Shown piece by piece: positions 9,043 to 34,817 of a stretch of DNA of 64,000 bases. Position 1 is the stretch's first letter. Every line of letters starts with the position of its first letter. The notes under the pieces were generated by a model that made no database searches, was not told where the DNA came from, and saw only the letters and a list, made by a program, of their open reading frames with translations. The translations under genes were made by a program, and so were the position numbers. Source of the DNA: an uncultured bacterium (GTDB taxonomy: Bacteria; Bacillota_I; Bacilli_A; RF39; UBA660); assembly GCA_947169285.1 (NCBI GenBank), contig CAMVPB010000001.1, positions 77,226-141,225 of the forward strand, read 5' to 3'.

Positions 9043-9339
9043 TTATTCTTTTATATCCATAGAACTATCATTCCATACAATATTAGAATAAATCTTTCTA
9101 TTATCTTTCTCATACTTAATAAATATTAAATTCTTATTGCTTAGTTTTGATAAACTTTTTGATATTGTTCTTGTTGATAATTCTAATTGTTGTGATAAGT
9201 ATTTATTAGTAGCTATACACACTCTTTTTATACACAGAGATACAATCATACCCATAACTAATTTATCAGTTGAATTTAGCTCTAATTTCTTTAAATCTGA
9301 TAATGGTACAATTGCATATTTCATATAATTACCTTTCAT
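9043..9339 (-). CDS. small winged-helix DNA-binding protein (HTH_36-like; candidate iteron/centromere-binding or replication regulator)
   Basis: 98 aa; ...VPLSDLKKLELNSTDKLVMGMIVSL...ATNKYLSQQLELSTRTISKSLSKLSNKNLIFIKYEK...; typical N-terminal wHTH of phage/plasmid replication proteins; iteron arrays lie in its upstream region. Confidence 0.5.
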   Translation of the reverse strand: MKGNYMKYAIVPLSDLKKLELNSTDKLVMGMIVSLCIKRVCIATNKYLSQQLELSTRTISKSLSKLSNKNLIFIKYEKDNRKIYSNIVWNDSSMDIKE

Positions 9340-9430
9340 CCATATATAATCCCCCTTTCTTTTGACAATAAAAAAGACCTGTGTTTCTTTTCACAAGTCC
9401 AATTCAAATCAAATAATTCTAAATGGATTT

Positions 9431-9467
9431 ACTTATAATTCTTCCACTTTACCATATCTTACCATGA
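9431..9467 (+). repeat. ~37-bp direct repeat copy 1 (ACTTATAATTCTTCCACTTTACCATATCTTACCATGAC); copy 2 at ~9678..9714
   Basis: 34/37 identical copies 247 bp apart, each followed 16 bp later by a five-unit 12-bp tandem array. Confidence 0.8.
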
Positions 9468-9483
9468 CTTTTATTGTTTGTAA

Positions 9484-9543
9484 ATGCAAATTTTCATGCA
9501 ATTTTATATGCAAGATGAGATGCAACTTCACATGCAAAATATT
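9484..9543 (+). repeat. tandem array A: five 12-bp repeats with ATGCAA core (ATGCAAATTTTC/ATGCAATTTTAT/ATGCAAGATGAG/ATGCAACTTCAC/ATGCAAAATATT)
   Basis: Exact 12-bp periodicity of ATGCAA at ~9484, 9496, 9508, 9520, 9532. Confidence 0.85.
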
Positions 9544-9730
9544 TGTAATTATTTCTTTGGAATACCGCATAAATACTAAGGAAATAAGCTTTTCATTATT
9601 TTAATTTTTTGAACAAAAATAATAGTCAAAAAATATAGTAAAAATATTTTTACTAATTTTTTTAAAATGATAAAGATGCTTATAATTTATCCACTTTACC
9701 ATATCTTATCATGCTTATAGGCACTTGTAC

Positions 9731-9790
9731 AGGAAAATTTTCAGGAAGTTTGAGAGGAAGTTATAGAGGAAGTATAAGAAGAAGTATCAC
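9731..9790 (+). repeat. tandem array B: five 12-bp repeats with AGGAAG core (AGGAAAATTTTC/AGGAAGTTTGAG/AGGAAGTTATAG/AGGAAGTATAAG/AAGAAGTATCAC)
   Basis: Exact 12-bp periodicity at ~9731, 9743, 9755, 9767, 9779; same position relative to direct-repeat copy 2 as array A relative to copy 1. Confidence 0.85.
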
Positions 9791-9939
9791 ATACACTTTT
9801 ATATGAAGTTTGTTTACATAAAAATTGGTATAAAGCTCTATAAATATTTATTAAATTGGTCTTCATTAATTATAATTATTTTCAAATTTTATTAGCAAAA
9901 AATGTATAAAAAAATAGAGGGTAATATCTTTAAAAATTA

Positions 9940-10548
9940 TTAAGATATAATATTGTATCCCTCATGCAAAATATATTTTTTACCATTGTATGCAAGCGCA
10001 TATTCTTCTGTTATATATTCACCTTTCATACATCTAATATAAAAATCTTCTAATTTGCTCTTATTTTGCTTTAAAAATTGTAATATTTTTTTTCTTTCTT
10101 TTACAGAAAATATATCTTCAAATTTAACGGAGTCATTTTTCATCTGTGTCATTGTGCTTAAAACAATTCTTACAAATTGCTTCTTTCTATAAGAATATAT
10201 ATGAACATGTGGTCTATTATGTGGTTCGCCATTGTTTACTCTTATTATAGCAATATCGTCAAAATCACAACCAGCACCTATTCCATATACATATAATAGT
10301 TTTATTTTTTTAAAATCATAATTAAAATTTTTTAAAAACTTTAACAGTTTAAAATCTAGTCTTGCTTTTTGCTCGACACCATTATGTTCAAAAGCAAACA
10401 ATGAAATCAAATTATCGCTTTCATCTTCTTTAAAAAGATCATTGTGTATTGAATCATACAAATCTTTTATTAACGTATTATTATCACAACTATACTTGTA
10501 TTCAAAAACTCCATCATTACGCGTATATATTTCAAACTCTAATTCCAT
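9940..10548 (-). CDS. hypothetical protein with DUF4160-like segment (..GEPHNRPHVHIY..)
   Basis: 202 aa; central NNGEPHNRPHVHIYSYRKKQF resembles the PPHfHv core of DUF4160; last gene of the UDG-containing minus-strand cluster. Confidence 0.3.
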   Translation of the reverse strand: MELEFEIYTRNDGVFEYKYSCDNNTLIKDLYDSIHNDLFKEDESDNLISLFAFEHNGVEQKARLDFKLLKFLKNFNYDFKKIKLLYVYGIGAGCDFDDIAIIRVNNGEPHNRPHVHIYSYRKKQFVRIVLSTMTQMKNDSVKFEDIFSVKERKKILQFLKQNKSKLEDFYIRCMKGEYITEEYALAYNGKKYILHEGYNIIS

Positions 10549-33058: not shown

Positions 33059-33315
33059 TTGTAAAATAAAAAAAATATGATATAATCTAACTAGTAAAAA
33101 CGAGGAAGAAGAAGAGTATTTTAAAGATTCTTTATAGAGAGTTAGTGGATGGTGAAAACTAATAAGATATTTAAAAGAATAAAGACTTTGGAGTTGAATA
33201 CCGTATACAAGGTATTACGTTAATCGCGTTAAGATAAGAGATATTATAAATTTATAATATAAATTAAGGTGGTACCACGGTTTCTTCGTCCTTTTTCCAA
33301 GGACGTTTTTATTTT
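33059..33315 (+). promoter_or_regulatory. promoter (TTGTAA-16-TGaTATAAT) plus T-box riboswitch leader with terminator, upstream of lysS
   Basis: T-box sequence AATTAAGGTGGTACCACGG at ~33262..33280; AGAGAG/GGTGAAAAC stem-I elements; terminator CGTCCTT-tttcc-AAGGACG+TTTTTATTTT at ~33287..33315; candidate Lys specifier (AAG or AAA) in stem I. Confidence 0.75.
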
Positions 33316-33329
33316 ATAAGGAGGCTTTT

Positions 33330-34817
33330 ATGGAAAGAAATTTTACAGAACAAGAATTAGTTAGGAGAGAAAAAGCAGAAAAGTTAAAAGAATTAGGTCT
33401 AGATGCATTTGGACAAAGATATGATAAAACTGATTATGCGGTAGATATTAAAGAAAAATATAAAGATGTTGAACATGATCAATTTGAGAGTATGAATGAT
33501 ACTGCTAAAGTAGCCGGTAGAATAATGTTTATTAGAAAAATGGGAAAAGCTTCATTCTTTACCATTAAAGATAAAACTGGACCTATCCAAATATATATTT
33601 CAATAAATGATATTGGAGAAGATAATTATAATTTATTCAAATCAGCAGATATTGGTGATATTGTTGGTGTTTATGGAAAAATAATGAAAACAAATACTGG
33701 AGAAATTACTATTAAGTGTTTAGAATATACACATTTAGTAAAAGCATTGAAACCACTTCCAGAAAAATTTCATGGACTTACTGATATTGAAGAAAGATAT
33801 AGAAGAAGATACTTAGACCTTATAATGAATGATGAATCTAAACGTGTTGCCTTCATGAGACCAAGAATTATAAGATGTATTCAAAACTTCTTAGATAAAC
33901 AAGGATTTACTGAAGTAGAAACTCCAATATTAACAACATTATTAACAGGTGCTTCAGCTAGACCATTTGTAACCCACCATAATGCTCAAGACTTAGATAT
34001 GTATTTAAGAATAGCACTAGAACTTAATTTAAAAAGATTATTAGTTGGTGGAATGGAAAGAGTTTATGAAATTGGAAGAACATTTAGAAATGAAGGAATG
34101 GATCTTCAACATAATCCAGAATTTACAATGATGGAAGTATACCAAGCATATTCTAATTTAGAAGGCATGATGGAACTTACTGAAAATATGTATAAGACAA
34201 TCGCTAATGAAGTATGTGGTAAAACAACATTTAATTATTTAGGACATGAAATTAACCTAGATGGTGAATGGAAAAGAATATCTATGACAGATGCTATCAA
34301 AGAAAAAACTGGAATAGATTTTAAAGCAATCACTGATTTAAATGAATGCTTGAACCTTGCTAAAGAACATGGTATTGAACTTGAAGAACATGAGAAACAA
34401 TATGGACATATAATTAATAAATTCTTTGAAAAGTATGTAGAAGAAACATTAATTGAACCAACATTCTTATATGGACATCCAATTGAAATATCTCCACTTA
34501 CTAAAAAAGATCCAGAAGATCCTAGATTTACTCAAAGATTTGAATTATTTATTTCTGGTAAAGAATGTGCAAATGCATATACAGAATTAAATGATCCAAT
34601 TGATCAATTAGAAAGATTTGAAGCTCAATTAAAAGAAAAAGATATGGGTAATGAAGAAGCTAATGATATAGATATGGATTTCATTGAAGCTCTAGAATAT
34701 GGTATGCCACCAGCAGGCGGAATTGGATATGGAATAGATAGACTAGTAATGTTATTTACAGAACAAGATTCAATAAGAGACGTTCTATTATTCCCTACAA
34801 TGAAACCAAGAGAATAA
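33330..34817 (+). CDS. lysS: lysine--tRNA ligase (class II)
   Basis: 495 aa; class II motifs, anticodon-binding OB N-terminus, ...GGIGYGIDRLVMLFT... C-terminus. Confidence 0.9.
   Translation: MERNFTEQELVRREKAEKLKELGLDAFGQRYDKTDYAVDIKEKYKDVEHDQFESMNDTAKVAGRIMFIRKMGKASFFTIKDKTGPIQIYISINDIGEDNYNLFKSADIGDIVGVYGKIMKTNTGEITIKCLEYTHLVKALKPLPEKFHGLTDIEERYRRRYLDLIMNDESKRVAFMRPRIIRCIQNFLDKQGFTEVETPILTTLLTGASARPFVTHHNAQDLDMYLRIALELNLKRLLVGGMERVYEIGRTFRNEGMDLQHNPEFTMMEVYQAYSNLEGMMELTENMYKTIANEVCGKTTFNYLGHEINLDGEWKRISMTDAIKEKTGIDFKAITDLNECLNLAKEHGIELEEHEKQYGHIINKFFEKYVEETLIEPTFLYGHPIEISPLTKKDPEDPRFTQRFELFISGKECANAYTELNDPIDQLERFEAQLKEKDMGNEEANDIDMDFIEALEYGMPPAGGIGYGIDRLVMLFTEQDSIRDVLLFPTMKPRE

What the first reader, a model, noticed from the sequence alone, without database searches (positions are those of the whole stretch)
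9431..9790. Two parallel modules: a ~37-bp direct repeat followed 16 bp later by five tandem 12-bp repeats, with different cores (ATGCAA versus AGGAAG)
ATGCAA recurs at exact 12-bp intervals starting at 9484, 9496, 9508, 9520 and 9532. AGGAAG/AGGAAA/AAGAAG recurs at exact 12-bp intervals starting at 9731, 9743, 9755, 9767 and 9779. Each array sits the same distance downstream of a copy of ACTTATAATT(CT/TA)TCCACTTTACCATATCTTA(C/T)CATG. The arrays lie in the upstream region of a 98-aa winged-helix gene followed by an SSB-like gene. The architecture resembles plasmid iteron origins. It also resembles type II/III partition centromeres. From memory, R1 parC has two sets of five 11-bp repeats, and TubR-bound tubC uses 12-bp repeats. 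Two homologous modules with diverged repeat cores could be a duplicated binding-site set with switched specificity.
Basis: partly seen in the sequence, partly recalled or inferred. Interest (0 to 1): 0.7.

Follow-up and report, generated by a model that had tools for sequence, protein, structure and literature searches.

The report
Repeat arrays locked to twin promoters
Two real 12-bp repeat arrays sit directly against two duplicated promoters that control the core genes of a small integrative element; they look like docking sites for a regulatory protein, not like the element's replication origin.

Summary
ATGCAA x5 and AGGAAG-like x5 at an exact 12-bp period are the only such runs in 64 kb, and 200 shuffles gave none. 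The box is 35 nt and unique to these two places.

All genes here are on the minus strand. Read that way, each box is a promoter (-35, 17 bp, TGn-extended -10) plus the first ~20 transcribed bases. Each array is in exact 12-bp register with the -35. The proximal promoter feeds a leader (5' hairpin, terminator, RBS) and the wHTH / SSB-like / serine-recombinase operon. The distal promoter gives a short non-coding RNA.

Relatives keep the promoter and leader, but arrays vary from 0 to ~10 units and differ in core (TTGCAT, TTGCAG, CTTCCT, CTTCAC). In the TTGCAT array the core is 100% identical between units and the spacers are near random, so the hexamer is under selection. The arrays are not coding.

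Best reading: cooperative operator arrays of the tubC / stbS / parC kind. The binder is unproven. The wHTH recognition helix does not track the cores, and no partition NTPase is present. A better origin candidate lies just downstream of the wHTH gene: three 22-bp-spaced repeats plus an AT-rich stretch, conserved in every relative examined.

The parts
9479..9538 (-). Proximal array (type A). Five 12-bp units with core TTGCAT on the minus strand (ATGCAA on plus). The last unit, TTTGCATTTACA, contains the -35 hexamer TTTACA (9484->9479).
   Evidence: Core positions 2-7 are 100% identical between units; the other positions are 38% identical (random expectation 31%).
9456..9484 (-). Proximal promoter P1: -35 TTTACA, 17-bp spacer, TG (9464-9463), -10 TAAGAT (9461->9456). 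The start site is inferred near 9449.
   Evidence: One search lists this site with a TG. The same geometry (-35, 17 bp, TGn plus -10) holds in all 10 modules listed (five lineages) and in L031 by my reading.
9432..9466 (.). Copy 1 of the 35-nt box. It holds the end of the promoter spacer, the TG, the -10, and the first ~18 transcribed bases (5' arm and loop of the leader hairpin).
9421..9449 (-). 5' hairpin of the operon leader RNA (AAAGUGGA ... UCCAUUU).
   Evidence: every sequence change in this stem across relatives keeps the pair through G-U <-> A-U or G-C switches, apart from one broken cell (an A-A at one pair in L004). These switches pair only on the minus-strand RNA.
9370..9405 (-). 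Intrinsic terminator / attenuator hairpin with a U-run, between P1 and the wHTH ribosome-binding site.
   Evidence: one terminator found, 0.1 expected.. Conserved in L001, L024, L004, L026, L029 and L031 with one-sided pair-preserving changes.
9043..9339 (-). 98-aa winged-helix gene, first gene of the operon in the window. It matches only the N-terminal DNA-binding part of phage and plasmid replication initiators.
9726..9809 (-). Distal array (type B). About seven 12-bp units with core ACTTCCT on the minus strand (AGGAAG on plus); the two distal-most units are degenerate. The last unit, TTTTCCTGTACA, contains the -35 hexamer TGTACA (9731->9726).
9703..9731 (-). Distal promoter P2: -35 TGTACA, 17-bp spacer, TG, -10 TAAGAT (9708->9703).
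   Evidence: The spacer is identical in the distal modules of L004 and L026 and differs at two positions in L001 and L024.
9679..9713 (.). Copy 2 of the 35-nt box (end of the P2 spacer, the TG, the -10 and the first transcribed bases).
9626..9702 (-). Predicted short non-coding transcript from P2: a 5' hairpin, then a hairpin flanked by an A-run and a U-run.
   Evidence: -16.0 kcal/mol, z = -3.6, and 0 of 200 shuffles fold as well. No ORF with a ribosome-binding site follows. The second hairpin is poorly conserved in L004 and L026, so read-through into P1 is possible.
9014..9075 (.). Three 17-nt repeats at 22-23 bp spacing (minus strand TAGAAGAATAGTTCTAT, an internal dyad TAGAA-N6-TTCTA). They overlap the 3' end of the wHTH gene. 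This is the candidate cognate iteron set for the wHTH.
   Evidence: family D3; present in all eight elements compared, including L008, L012, L030 and L031, which lack full arrays.
8935..9012 (.). Very AT-rich stretch with short AAAATAAATAT-type repeats between the 22-bp repeats and the SSB-like gene. Candidate DNA-unwinding element.
8463..8927 (-). 154-aa SSB-like (OB-fold) gene, second conserved gene of the operon.
   Evidence: SSB family, E = 6.8e-4, below the curated cut-off; conserved in all relatives compared.
1310..2914 (-). Large serine recombinase (Resolvase, Recombinase, zinc ribbon, DUF4368). It marks this as an integrative element.

Best explanation
The locus is the control region of a small integrative element whose conserved core is wHTH, an SSB-like protein, a small ORF and a large serine recombinase.

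Each 35-nt box, read on the minus strand, is a housekeeping-type promoter with an extended -10, plus the first ~20 transcribed bases. The whole module (array plus promoter) was duplicated.

P1 drives the operon through a leader that has a 5' hairpin and a terminator just before the wHTH ribosome-binding site. P2, 247 bp upstream, makes a short non-coding RNA or reads into P1.

Each 12-bp array is a row of phased recognition sites that ends on the -35 hexamer. A small DNA-binding protein is inferred to load cooperatively along the row, one unit per 12 bp, as TubR does on tubC and StbA does on stbS. This sets how often RNA polymerase can use the promoter, most probably by repression.

The most likely binder is the element's own wHTH, acting as an autoregulator (about 0.4 on its own). 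A host factor is the main alternative.

Shown: the repeats, their register with the promoter, the selection on the core, the RNA structure of the leader, and the absence of coding. Inferred: promoter activity, protein binding, the identity of the binder, and the sign of regulation.
For: 1. Promoter geometry. -35 / 17 bp / TGn plus -10 (TAAGAT, TAATAT or TAGGAT) holds in all 10 modules listed, and in L031 by my reading. The consensus scan picks out the proximal site with its TG.
2. Register. Every array is in exact 12-bp register with the -35, and the last unit contains the -35.
3. Selection on the core. In type A the core is 100% (window) and 94% (L004) identical between units, while the other positions are 38-42% identical against 31% for random sequence.
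4. Strand. Terminator and 5' hairpin keep their pairing through 13 one-sided changes in relatives (G-U <-> A-U or G-C). The minus-strand RNA folds at -16.2 kcal/mol against -9.6 for the plus strand.
5. Not coding. Type B arrays have in-frame stops with the repeats continuing past them in L001, L024, L004 and L026. The minus-strand frame of type A has stops in L004 and L026. All Cys codons in the plus-strand frame of the type A units are TGC, while window genes use TGT 59:14. There is no Shine-Dalgarno sequence.
6. Candidate binder. The wHTH is the only shared protein with a recognisable DNA-binding fold.
7. Precedents. TubR of the c-st prophage binds a split centromere with two different iterons that covers the promoter (PMC6009700). 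StbA binds two sets of five short repeats in its own promoter, needs no NTPase for plasmid stability, and represses transcription (bioRxiv 10.1101/2022.04.29.490116).
8. Shared skeleton. Both array types keep T3, C5 and T7 in the common register, so one binder with two affinities is possible.
Against: - No experimental data exist on transcription or binding.
- The count of promoter-like hits in this AT-rich region is not above chance (14 found, 11.9 expected). The promoter call therefore rests on conservation, not on the scan.
- The wHTH recognition helix is unchanged across elements with TTGCAT, TTGCAG and CTTCCT proximal arrays.
- L029 carries a near-identical wHTH with no array. Distant relatives have none.
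- The wHTH already has a better-conserved candidate site set, the 22-bp repeats.
- A 12-bp period does not keep sites on one face of the helix.
- Array number changes by 36-bp steps between close relatives, so part of the pattern is simple repeat dynamics.
- No fully compensatory (two-sided) changes support the RNA structure.
Confidence: 0.5

Rival explanations
1. The arrays are iterons of the element's replication origin. The initiator-like wHTH would bind both arrays and melt the AT-rich DNA between them.
For: - The wHTH matches the DNA-binding N-terminus of phage and plasmid initiators, and an SSB-like gene follows.
- The two arrays flank about 160 bp of very AT-rich DNA.
- The distal box contains AGTGGATAA, which matches the DnaA-box consensus TGTGGATAA (recalled from memory) at 8 of 9 positions, in the window, L004 and L026.
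- SaPI origins have two sets of 5-6-nt iterons split by an AT-rich region (PMC9371898).
Against: - L001 and L024 have lost one array and the whole inter-array AT-rich region.
- L029 has no array, L031 has a stub, and L008-L016 and L030 have none.
- All relatives examined keep three or four 22-bp-spaced repeats plus an AT-rich stretch downstream of the wHTH gene.
- SaPI iterons point in opposite directions on the two sides and share one sequence. Here both arrays point the same way and differ in core.
- The arrays are phase-locked to a promoter, which an origin does not require.
Confidence: 0.1
2. The arrays are centromere-like partition sites for the excised circular form, of the type II/III or StbA kind. 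They double as operators.
For: - The layout matches tubC, parC and stbS: blocks of about five short direct repeats at or upstream of the promoter of a small DNA-binding protein's own operon (PMC6009700; bioRxiv 10.1101/2022.04.29.490116).
- The 12-bp period equals that reported for pBtoxis tubC (stated in the StbA preprint).
- StbA shows that a dedicated NTPase is not obligatory.
Against: - No TubZ, ParM or ParA is in the element or its neighbourhood.
- The wHTH is no closer to TubR than to dozens of ArsR/MarR regulators (TubR at rank 47). It has no sequence match to TubR or StbA chains.
- The arrays are dispensable in close relatives (L029).
- An integrated element needs partition only transiently.
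Confidence: 0.1
3. The arrays are bound by host transcription factors, one for each core. P1 and P2 would then be tandem promoters that feed two different host signals into excision and replication genes.
For: - Two different cores sit in one element whose only DNA-binding protein does not vary with them.
- The cores can be swapped or lost without change in the element's proteins (L001, L029).
- The position abutting the -35 is typical of activators and repressors.
Against: - No known Firmicute regulator motif was convincingly matched. A CodY-like 15-mer at the array / -35 junction matches the remembered consensus at 13 of 15 positions in the window's distal module only, by hand comparison. 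It is weaker in relatives and such matches are expected in AT-rich DNA.
- Five to ten phased copies are unusual for ordinary host regulators.
Confidence: 0.17
4. The arrays are selectively near-neutral tandem repeats generated by slippage of the -35-proximal 12-mer, with no dedicated binder.
For: - Copy number differs by 36 bp between very close relatives (L001 versus L024; L004 versus L026).
- L001 has a perfect 36-bp higher-order repeat.
- Edge units are the most degenerate.
- L029 does without an array.
Against: - In the window's type A array the hexamer is invariant while the spacers have diverged to near random. Slippage alone does not produce this.
- The two-array layout is kept in two lineages whose wHTH proteins are 79% identical (window and L004/L026).
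Confidence: 0.1
5. The arrays encode small periodic peptides on the plus strand, starting at the ATG in each box: Cys every fourth residue (MTFIVCKCKFSCNFICKMRCNFTCK...) and Gly-Ser-x-Arg repeats.
For: - The ATG is conserved in the boxes that have arrays.
- The type A frame stays open in the window, L004 and L026.
Against: - There is no Shine-Dalgarno sequence.
- Type B has in-frame stops with the repeats continuing beyond them in four relatives.
- L031 reads MLM-stop (my reading).
- All array Cys codons are TGC, against a genomic preference of 59:14 for TGT.
- By hand comparison of the sequences, substitutions outside the repeats are almost all non-synonymous.
- The conserved CATG is explained by the TG of the extended -10.
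Confidence: 0.03

Closest known systems
tubC / TubR of type III partition systems (pBtoxis; C. botulinum prophage c-st)
   Same: - A ~10-kDa winged-helix protein is encoded directly downstream of blocks of short direct repeats.
- The pBtoxis repeats are 12 bp.
- c-st tubC is split, carries two different iterons and covers the promoter (PMC6009700).
- The complex also represses the operon.
   Different: - No TubZ (or TubY) is present.
- The wHTH shows only generic fold similarity to TubR and instead matches initiator N-termini.
- Here the arrays sit in front of two duplicated promoters of an integrative element, not of a plasmid or prophage partition operon.
- The arrays are dispensable in close relatives.
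stbS / StbA of plasmid R388
   Same: - Two sets of five short direct repeats lie in the promoter of the binder's own operon.
- The repeat core is similar by eye (YTGCATCAT versus TTGCAT).
- One small HTH protein is both repressor and centromere-binding protein.
- No dedicated NTPase is needed.
- Promoters with 2, 3, 5 or 10 repeats all respond (bioRxiv 10.1101/2022.04.29.490116).
   Different: - The period is 11 bp there (same face of the helix) and 12 bp here.
- Both StbA sets share one consensus; here the cores differ.
- There is no detectable sequence relation between StbA and this wHTH.
- R388 is a proteobacterial conjugative plasmid; this is a low-GC integrative element.
parC / ParR of plasmid R1 (type II)
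   Same: Two sets of five phased direct repeats are associated with the operon promoter, and the binder autoregulates (from memory, and as summarised in the StbA preprint).
   Different: - parC repeats flank the promoter on both sides and have an 11-bp period.
- The binder is a ribbon-helix-helix protein with an actin-like ParM partner.
- None of these features is present here.
Iteron replicons with a self-regulated initiator, and Inc18 / pT181-type attenuation control
   Same: - An initiator-like wHTH gene is preceded by a promoter with repeats and a leader terminator.
- It is followed directly by repeats plus an AT-rich region. An origin just downstream of rep, as in pAMbeta1 / pIP501, is recalled from memory.
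- A terminator placed just before the rep ribosome-binding site is the hallmark of attenuation control.
   Different: - The protein is only 98 aa, a DNA-binding domain alone.
- No countertranscript could be identified. One plus-strand promoter-like site lies inside the leader but no terminator follows it.
- The 12-bp arrays are not conserved with the initiator, whereas the 22-bp repeats are.
SaPI replication origins
   Same: This is a chromosomal island with penta- or hexanucleotide iterons, 6-12 in number, in two sets around an AT-rich region and next to the initiator gene. A winged-helix domain recognises them (PMC9371898).
   Different: - SaPI iterons lie downstream of rep, share one sequence, and point in opposite directions on the two sides.
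- The SaPI binder is a helicase-initiator.
- Here the arrays are upstream, co-directional, of two kinds, and welded to promoters.

Membership tests
Type III partition system (TubR-TubZ-tubC) | Blocks of short direct repeats immediately upstream of the centromere-binding protein gene | tested here: met
   Two blocks of 5-7 units at a 12-bp period lie upstream of the wHTH gene.
Type III partition system (TubR-TubZ-tubC) | The centromere-binding protein belongs to the TubR family | tested here: inconclusive
   No TubR chain appears among the sequence hits. In the fold search TubR 4asn is rank 47 (E = 1.4e-2, TM 0.55), no better than many ArsR/MarR regulators.
Type III partition system (TubR-TubZ-tubC) | A tubulin-like GTPase TubZ is encoded with it | tested here: not met
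   The downstream genes are an SSB-like protein, cargo genes, a small ORF and the recombinase. No FtsZ/tubulin family hit was found.
Type II partition system (ParM-ParR-parC) | Repeats flank the promoter on both sides; ribbon-helix-helix ParR; actin-like ParM | tested here: not met
   Units lie only upstream of each -35. The operon's first gene is a wHTH. No actin-like ATPase was found.
StbA / stbS-type NTPase-independent segregation and regulation | Arrays of short direct repeats in the binder's own promoter | tested here: met
   compare bioRxiv 10.1101/2022.04.29.490116.
StbA / stbS-type NTPase-independent segregation and regulation | The binder is homologous to the StbA N-terminal HTH domain; the period is 11 bp | tested here: not met
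   No StbA chain is among the PDB sequence hits at E <= 10. The period here is exactly 12 bp.
Iteron-type replication origin | The repeats co-occur with the initiator across relatives and adjoin an AT-rich unwinding region | tested here: not met
   This holds for the 12-bp arrays: they are absent in L029, L008-L016 and L030, single in L001 and L024, and a stub in L031. The separate 22-bp repeats at 9014-9075 do meet the feature in all eight elements compared.
Iteron-type replication origin | The fragment supports initiator-dependent replication | not testable with these tools
   This needs a replication assay.
Sigma-70-type promoter with extended -10 | -35-like hexamer, 17-bp spacer, TGn, -10-like hexamer, correctly oriented to a gene with a ribosome-binding site | tested here: met
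   All 10 modules listed fit, and L031 fits by my reading. One search lists the window's proximal site. A ribosome-binding site and the wHTH start follow the leader. A start site has not been mapped.
Transcription-attenuation leader (pT181 / pIP501 type) | An intrinsic terminator lies between the promoter and the ribosome-binding site | tested here: met
   (9400->9375 plus a T-run; 0.1 expected); conserved, with pair-preserving changes.
Transcription-attenuation leader (pT181 / pIP501 type) | A countertranscript, or another defined anti-terminating or terminating effector | tested here: inconclusive
   A plus-strand promoter-like site lies at 9390-9417, but no terminator follows it. There is no Rfam match, including countertranscript families.

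The most novel reading that the evidence does not exclude
One 98-aa 'mini-initiator' wHTH reads three repeat classes. These are dyad repeats at 22-bp spacing at an origin just downstream of its own gene, and two kinds of 12-bp arrays welded to twin promoters. The arrays would act as StbA-like, NTPase-independent copy-control, handcuffing or segregation sites for the excised circle of a serine-recombinase element. Rapid turnover of the core (TTGCAT, TTGCAG, CTTCCT, CTTCAC) would define incompatibility or immunity groups among co-resident elements.
Probability: 0.12. Interest if true: 0.7.

Novelty: new variant of a known kind. Interest (0 to 1): 0.45.

Why it matters
Small integrative elements that carry only a recombinase and a two-gene replication module are almost unstudied, and how they time excision and replication is unknown. 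This locus gives a compact, testable control region: two array-gated promoters, an attenuator leader, and a separate candidate origin.

If the arrays are bound by the element's own 98-aa wHTH, this extends the logic of plasmid centromere-binding proteins (TubR, StbA, ParR) to integrative elements of uncultivated low-GC gut and rumen bacteria. It would also give a natural series of 0 to 10 units and four cores for studying how cooperative filaments on DNA set promoter output.

If the binder is a host factor, the arrays would show which host signals trigger mobilisation.

Tried and rejected
1. DNA similarity to deposited phages and plasmids: no match.
2. Exact and degenerate box patterns in genome, metagenome and viral collections. 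Only copies of L001 were true hits. L018, L019 and L021-L023 encode none of the element's proteins. A leader pattern in viral contigs gave 26 chance hits. The wHTH profile found no viral relative.
3. Coding on either strand: rejected.
4. Known RNA families, including plasmid countertranscripts: nothing. The best match was salivarius-1 at 17 bits against a 50-bit threshold.
5. A plus-strand promoter using the conserved TATAAT inside the box. By inspection it has no usable -35 and no TG, and the TATAAT is not kept in L031. The conservation is better explained as the loop of the leader hairpin.
6. An antiterminator pairing between that loop (UUAUAAGU) and the 5' arm of the terminator (ACUUGUGA). 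Eight pairs are possible in the window and in L029, but L004 and L031 each have a mismatch and no compensation. I keep this as a weak idea only.
7. A link between the 22-bp repeat core A(G/C)TTCTAT and type B units (ACTTCYTCT). They share ACTTC at most, which is not significant.
8. A TubR or StbA relationship of the wHTH: not supported.
9. A search for another shared DNA-binding protein. Only a 40-54-aa ORF with no family match is shared. The 57-aa ORF at 8034-8207 looks ribbon-helix-helix-like by eye but is not shared.
10. L063, a further recombinase relative, is a truncated remnant without the control region.
Full report

Yes. ATGCAA starts at 9484, 9496, 9508, 9520 and 9532. AGGAAA / AGGAAG x3 / AAGAAG start at 9731, 9743, 9755, 9767 and 9779. 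A scan of the whole window for any exact hexamer recurring at a 12-bp period finds only these two loci at x3 or more. In 200 dinucleotide-preserving shuffles, x3 runs averaged 0.12 and x4 runs never occurred. Searches for pairs of each core at this spacing find no further array in the window.

The direct repeat is 35 nt (9432-9466 and 9679-9713, 32 of 35 identical). It is unique in the window, with 0 matches expected by chance. The gap from box to first core is 17 nt in both modules. Homology continues into the first units at the same 247-bp offset (family D6). So a whole module, array plus box, was duplicated.

**2. Context**

The window has 25% G+C. All genes around the locus are on the minus strand:
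- a large serine recombinase at 1310-2914;
- two large cargo ORFs;
- an SSB-like OB-fold protein at 8463-8927;
- a 98-aa winged-helix protein at 9043-9339.

The wHTH matches only the N-terminal DNA-binding part of phage and plasmid replication initiators. Nothing similar is in the deposited phage or plasmid collections.

The wHTH has 29 homologues in metagenomes. Around them the order wHTH, SSB-like, cargo, serine recombinase is conserved. The recombinase gene is followed by an Amidase_3/LysM gene in L004, L031, L033-L036 and L063. This is a family of small integrative elements. The proteins shared by all array-bearing members are the wHTH, the SSB-like protein, a 40-54-aa ORF just before the recombinase, and the recombinase.

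**3. What the box is**

Read in gene orientation (minus strand), each box is the downstream part of a promoter: a -35 hexamer (TTTACA, TGTACA, TTTACT or TTGATA), exactly 17 bp, TGn, and a -10 hexamer (TAAGAT, TAATAT or TAGGAT). This holds in all 10 modules listed, from five lineages, and in L031 by my reading. The simple consensus scan lists the window's proximal site with its TG. That scan is not above chance overall in this AT-rich DNA, so the argument rests on conservation.

The rest of the box is the first ~20 transcribed bases. In the proximal module these form the 5' arm and loop of a hairpin (9449->9421). About 20 nt further on lies a G+C-containing hairpin with a U-run (9405->9370). 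It is the only terminator-like site found in the region, with 0.1 expected. Then come the ribosome-binding site and the wHTH start codon.

Across six relatives, all 22 predicted pairs are kept. Thirteen one-sided changes occur, all G-U <-> A-U or G-C, with a single broken cell. These wobble pairs work only on the minus-strand RNA. That strand folds at -16.2 kcal/mol, against -9.6 for the plus strand. There are no two-sided compensatory changes, so the structural support is good but not decisive.

The distal module is predicted to give an RNA of about 75 nt, with a 5' hairpin and then a hairpin flanked by an A-run and a U-run (z = -3.6). No ORF with a ribosome-binding site follows it. Its second hairpin is poorly conserved in L004 and L026, so read-through into P1 is possible.

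**4. What the arrays are**

Printed as 12-mers counted back from the -35, every array is in exact register with the promoter, and the last unit contains the -35.

| Array | Units, gene orientation |
|---|---|
| Window proximal | TTTGCATGTGAA GTTGCATCTCAT CTTGCATATAAA ATTGCATGAAAA TTTGCAT**TTACA** |
| Window distal | ... ACTTCTTCTTAT ACTTCCTCTATA ACTTCCTCTCAA ACTTCCTGAAAA TTTTCC**TGTACA** |

Relatives keep the promoter, leader and terminator but vary the arrays:

| Element | wHTH identity to window | Arrays |
|---|---|---|
| L004 | 79% | Same two-module layout; proximal core TTGCAG x5 after one TTGCAT unit |
| L026 | 79% | As L004, but the proximal array is 36 bp shorter |
| L001 | 92% | Single hybrid module: one TTTGCATATAAA unit, then about 9 ACTTCCT-type units. 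Looks like a deletion between the two boxes |
| L024 | 95% | As L001, with about 6 ACTTCCT-type units |
| L031 | 64% | 2-3 rudimentary units (core CTTCAC) |
| L029 | 76% | No array; only a relic unit (TGTGCATATAAA) and a stronger -35 (TTGATA) |
| L008-L016, L030 | 60-70% | No arrays |

Within the window's type A array the core positions are 100% identical between units. The other six positions are 38% identical, against 31% for random sequence at this composition. Such a pattern is the mark of selection on a hexamer at a fixed phase, not of recent duplication. In the shared register both array types keep T3, C5 and T7.

**5. Not coding, and not a known RNA**

A 12-bp period is also four codons, so I tested translation.
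- Type B arrays have in-frame stops in the ATG-initiated plus-strand frame in L001, L024, L004 and L026, and the repeats continue past the stop.
- The minus-strand frame of type A has stops in L004 and L026.
- The plus-strand frame of type A (Cys every fourth residue) stays open. However, every Cys codon in the units is TGC, while ten long genes of the window use TGT 59:14.
- The position after each Cys alternates Lys and Asn through third-base changes.
- There is no Shine-Dalgarno sequence.
- In L031 the frame reads MLM-stop.

The constraint is therefore on nucleotides. No Rfam family matches, even at permissive thresholds.

**6. Who binds?**

The wHTH is the only shared protein with a recognisable DNA-binding fold. 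Its model (pLDDT 79) is a generic ArsR/MarR-type winged helix. TubR appears only at rank 47, with the same weak score as many unrelated regulators. By sequence there is no TubR or StbA match. No ParA, ParM or TubZ is encoded nearby.

Against the wHTH as binder:
- its recognition helix (STRTISKSLSKLS) is essentially unchanged in elements with TTGCAT, TTGCAG or CTTCCT proximal arrays;
- L029 has it without any array.

In its favour:
- autoregulation by the first gene of the operon is the common pattern;
- c-st TubR binds two different iterons in one split centromere that covers its promoter (PMC6009700);
- StbA represses promoters carrying 2, 3, 5 or 10 repeats (bioRxiv 10.1101/2022.04.29.490116);
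- the two cores here share a skeleton.

On its own I put the wHTH at about 0.4 and a host factor at about 0.17.

**7. A better origin candidate**

The 3' end of the wHTH gene and the spacer before the SSB-like gene carry three repeats at 22-23 bp spacing (window 9014-9075). On the minus strand each reads TAGAAGAATAGTTCTAT, with an internal dyad TAGAA-N6-TTCTA. A very AT-rich stretch with short AAAATAAATAT-type repeats follows (8935-9012).

This arrangement is conserved in all eight elements compared, including the distant ones without arrays. It has the classical look of iterons plus an unwinding element placed next to the initiator gene, and it co-occurs with the conserved wHTH. For this reason I do not accept the 12-bp arrays as the origin.

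**8. Mechanism I commit to**

- P1 and P2 are paralogous promoters.
- Each is gated by a row of phased sites that ends on its -35.
- A small protein loads cooperatively along the row, one unit per 12 bp. Because 12 bp is longer than the ~10.5-bp helical repeat, the sites spiral around the helix, as in TubR filaments.
- This controls RNA polymerase access, most probably by repression.
- P1 output is then filtered by the leader terminator before it reaches the wHTH, SSB-like and recombinase genes.
- P2 yields a short RNA with a related 5' hairpin, or adds read-through transcription.

The repeats, their register, the selection on the core, the RNA pairing and the absence of coding are shown. Promoter activity, binding, binder identity and the sign of regulation are inferred. 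Overall confidence is 0.5.

**9. Comparison and novelty**

The system works like tubC/TubR, stbS/StbA and parC/ParR, which combine operator and centromere functions. It fails the membership tests for each: there is no partner NTPase, no family-specific binder, and the period or layout differs. It also shares the order of parts of attenuation-controlled replicons, in which a terminator precedes rep and the origin follows rep. That last comparison is from memory.

I rate it a new variant of a known kind: array-gated twin promoters in a serine-recombinase integrative element, with fast turnover of unit number and core. Interest is moderate (0.45). The locus is real, cleanly structured and testable, but the kind of device is familiar and the binder is unknown.

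Noticed in passing
window 8935-9075: Three 17-nt repeats at 22-23 bp spacing (internal dyad TAGAA-N6-TTCTA) overlap the wHTH stop codon, followed by a very AT-rich stretch. The arrangement is conserved in all eight elements compared, including those without 12-bp arrays. This is the likely true origin and the cognate site set of the wHTH.
   Followed up: partly
window 9370-9455 (minus strand): The operon leader has a conserved 5' hairpin and a terminator just before the ribosome-binding site, which suggests attenuation control. The hairpin loop UUAUAAGU could pair with the terminator's 5' arm ACUUGUGA as a possible antiterminator, but relatives give no compensatory support.
   Followed up: partly
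window 9869-9898 (minus strand): The best promoter-like match in the region (TTGCTA, 18 bp, TATAAT; 10 of 12) lies upstream of the distal array and would transcribe through it. I did not examine whether it is conserved.
   Followed up: no
window 2976-3140 (minus strand): A small ORF (probably 40 aa from the internal ATG, MNETKYNF...) lies just upstream of the recombinase. It is 85-96% identical in L001, L026, L031 and L034 and has no family match. It could be a recombination directionality factor.
   Followed up: partly
L004 3299-3502; L026 3652-3930; L029 3730-3933; L031 8482-8646: Some relatives carry an extra small gene between the leader and the wHTH, with its own terminator-like hairpin after it. 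By eye it looks ribbon-helix-helix-like; Pfam found nothing. The window and L001 lack it.
   Followed up: partly
window 3332-5563 and 5972-8059 (minus strand): Two large cargo ORFs (743 and 695 aa) are distantly paralogous: the 695-aa ORF hits L001's copy of the 743-aa protein at 27% identity. Both have C-terminal GNLTTIGG-type leucine-rich-like repeats. L001 has only the first, and L004 has different cargo.
   Followed up: no
window 33094-33296 (plus strand): A T-box leader (123 bits, above the gathering score) lies upstream of the 495-aa ORF at 33330-34817.
   Followed up: no
L063 3830-5918: A remnant element keeps only the last codons of the SSB-like gene, the small ORF and the recombinase, next to the same amidase gene. 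The control region and the wHTH have been deleted.
   Followed up: yes
L023 7720-7770 and 7860-7900: An unrelated Bacilli MAG contig matched the box pattern by chance. It has its own GTACGG x4 repeats at 11-12 bp spacing and AAAATATCGG repeats, which look like the origin of some other element.
   Followed up: no
window 9963-9974 and 9990-9995: CATGCAAAATAT, identical to 9531-9542, recurs inside the 3' end of the DUF4160 gene, and another ATGCAA lies 26 bp further on. This may be chance or a stray type A site (family D11).
   Followed up: no
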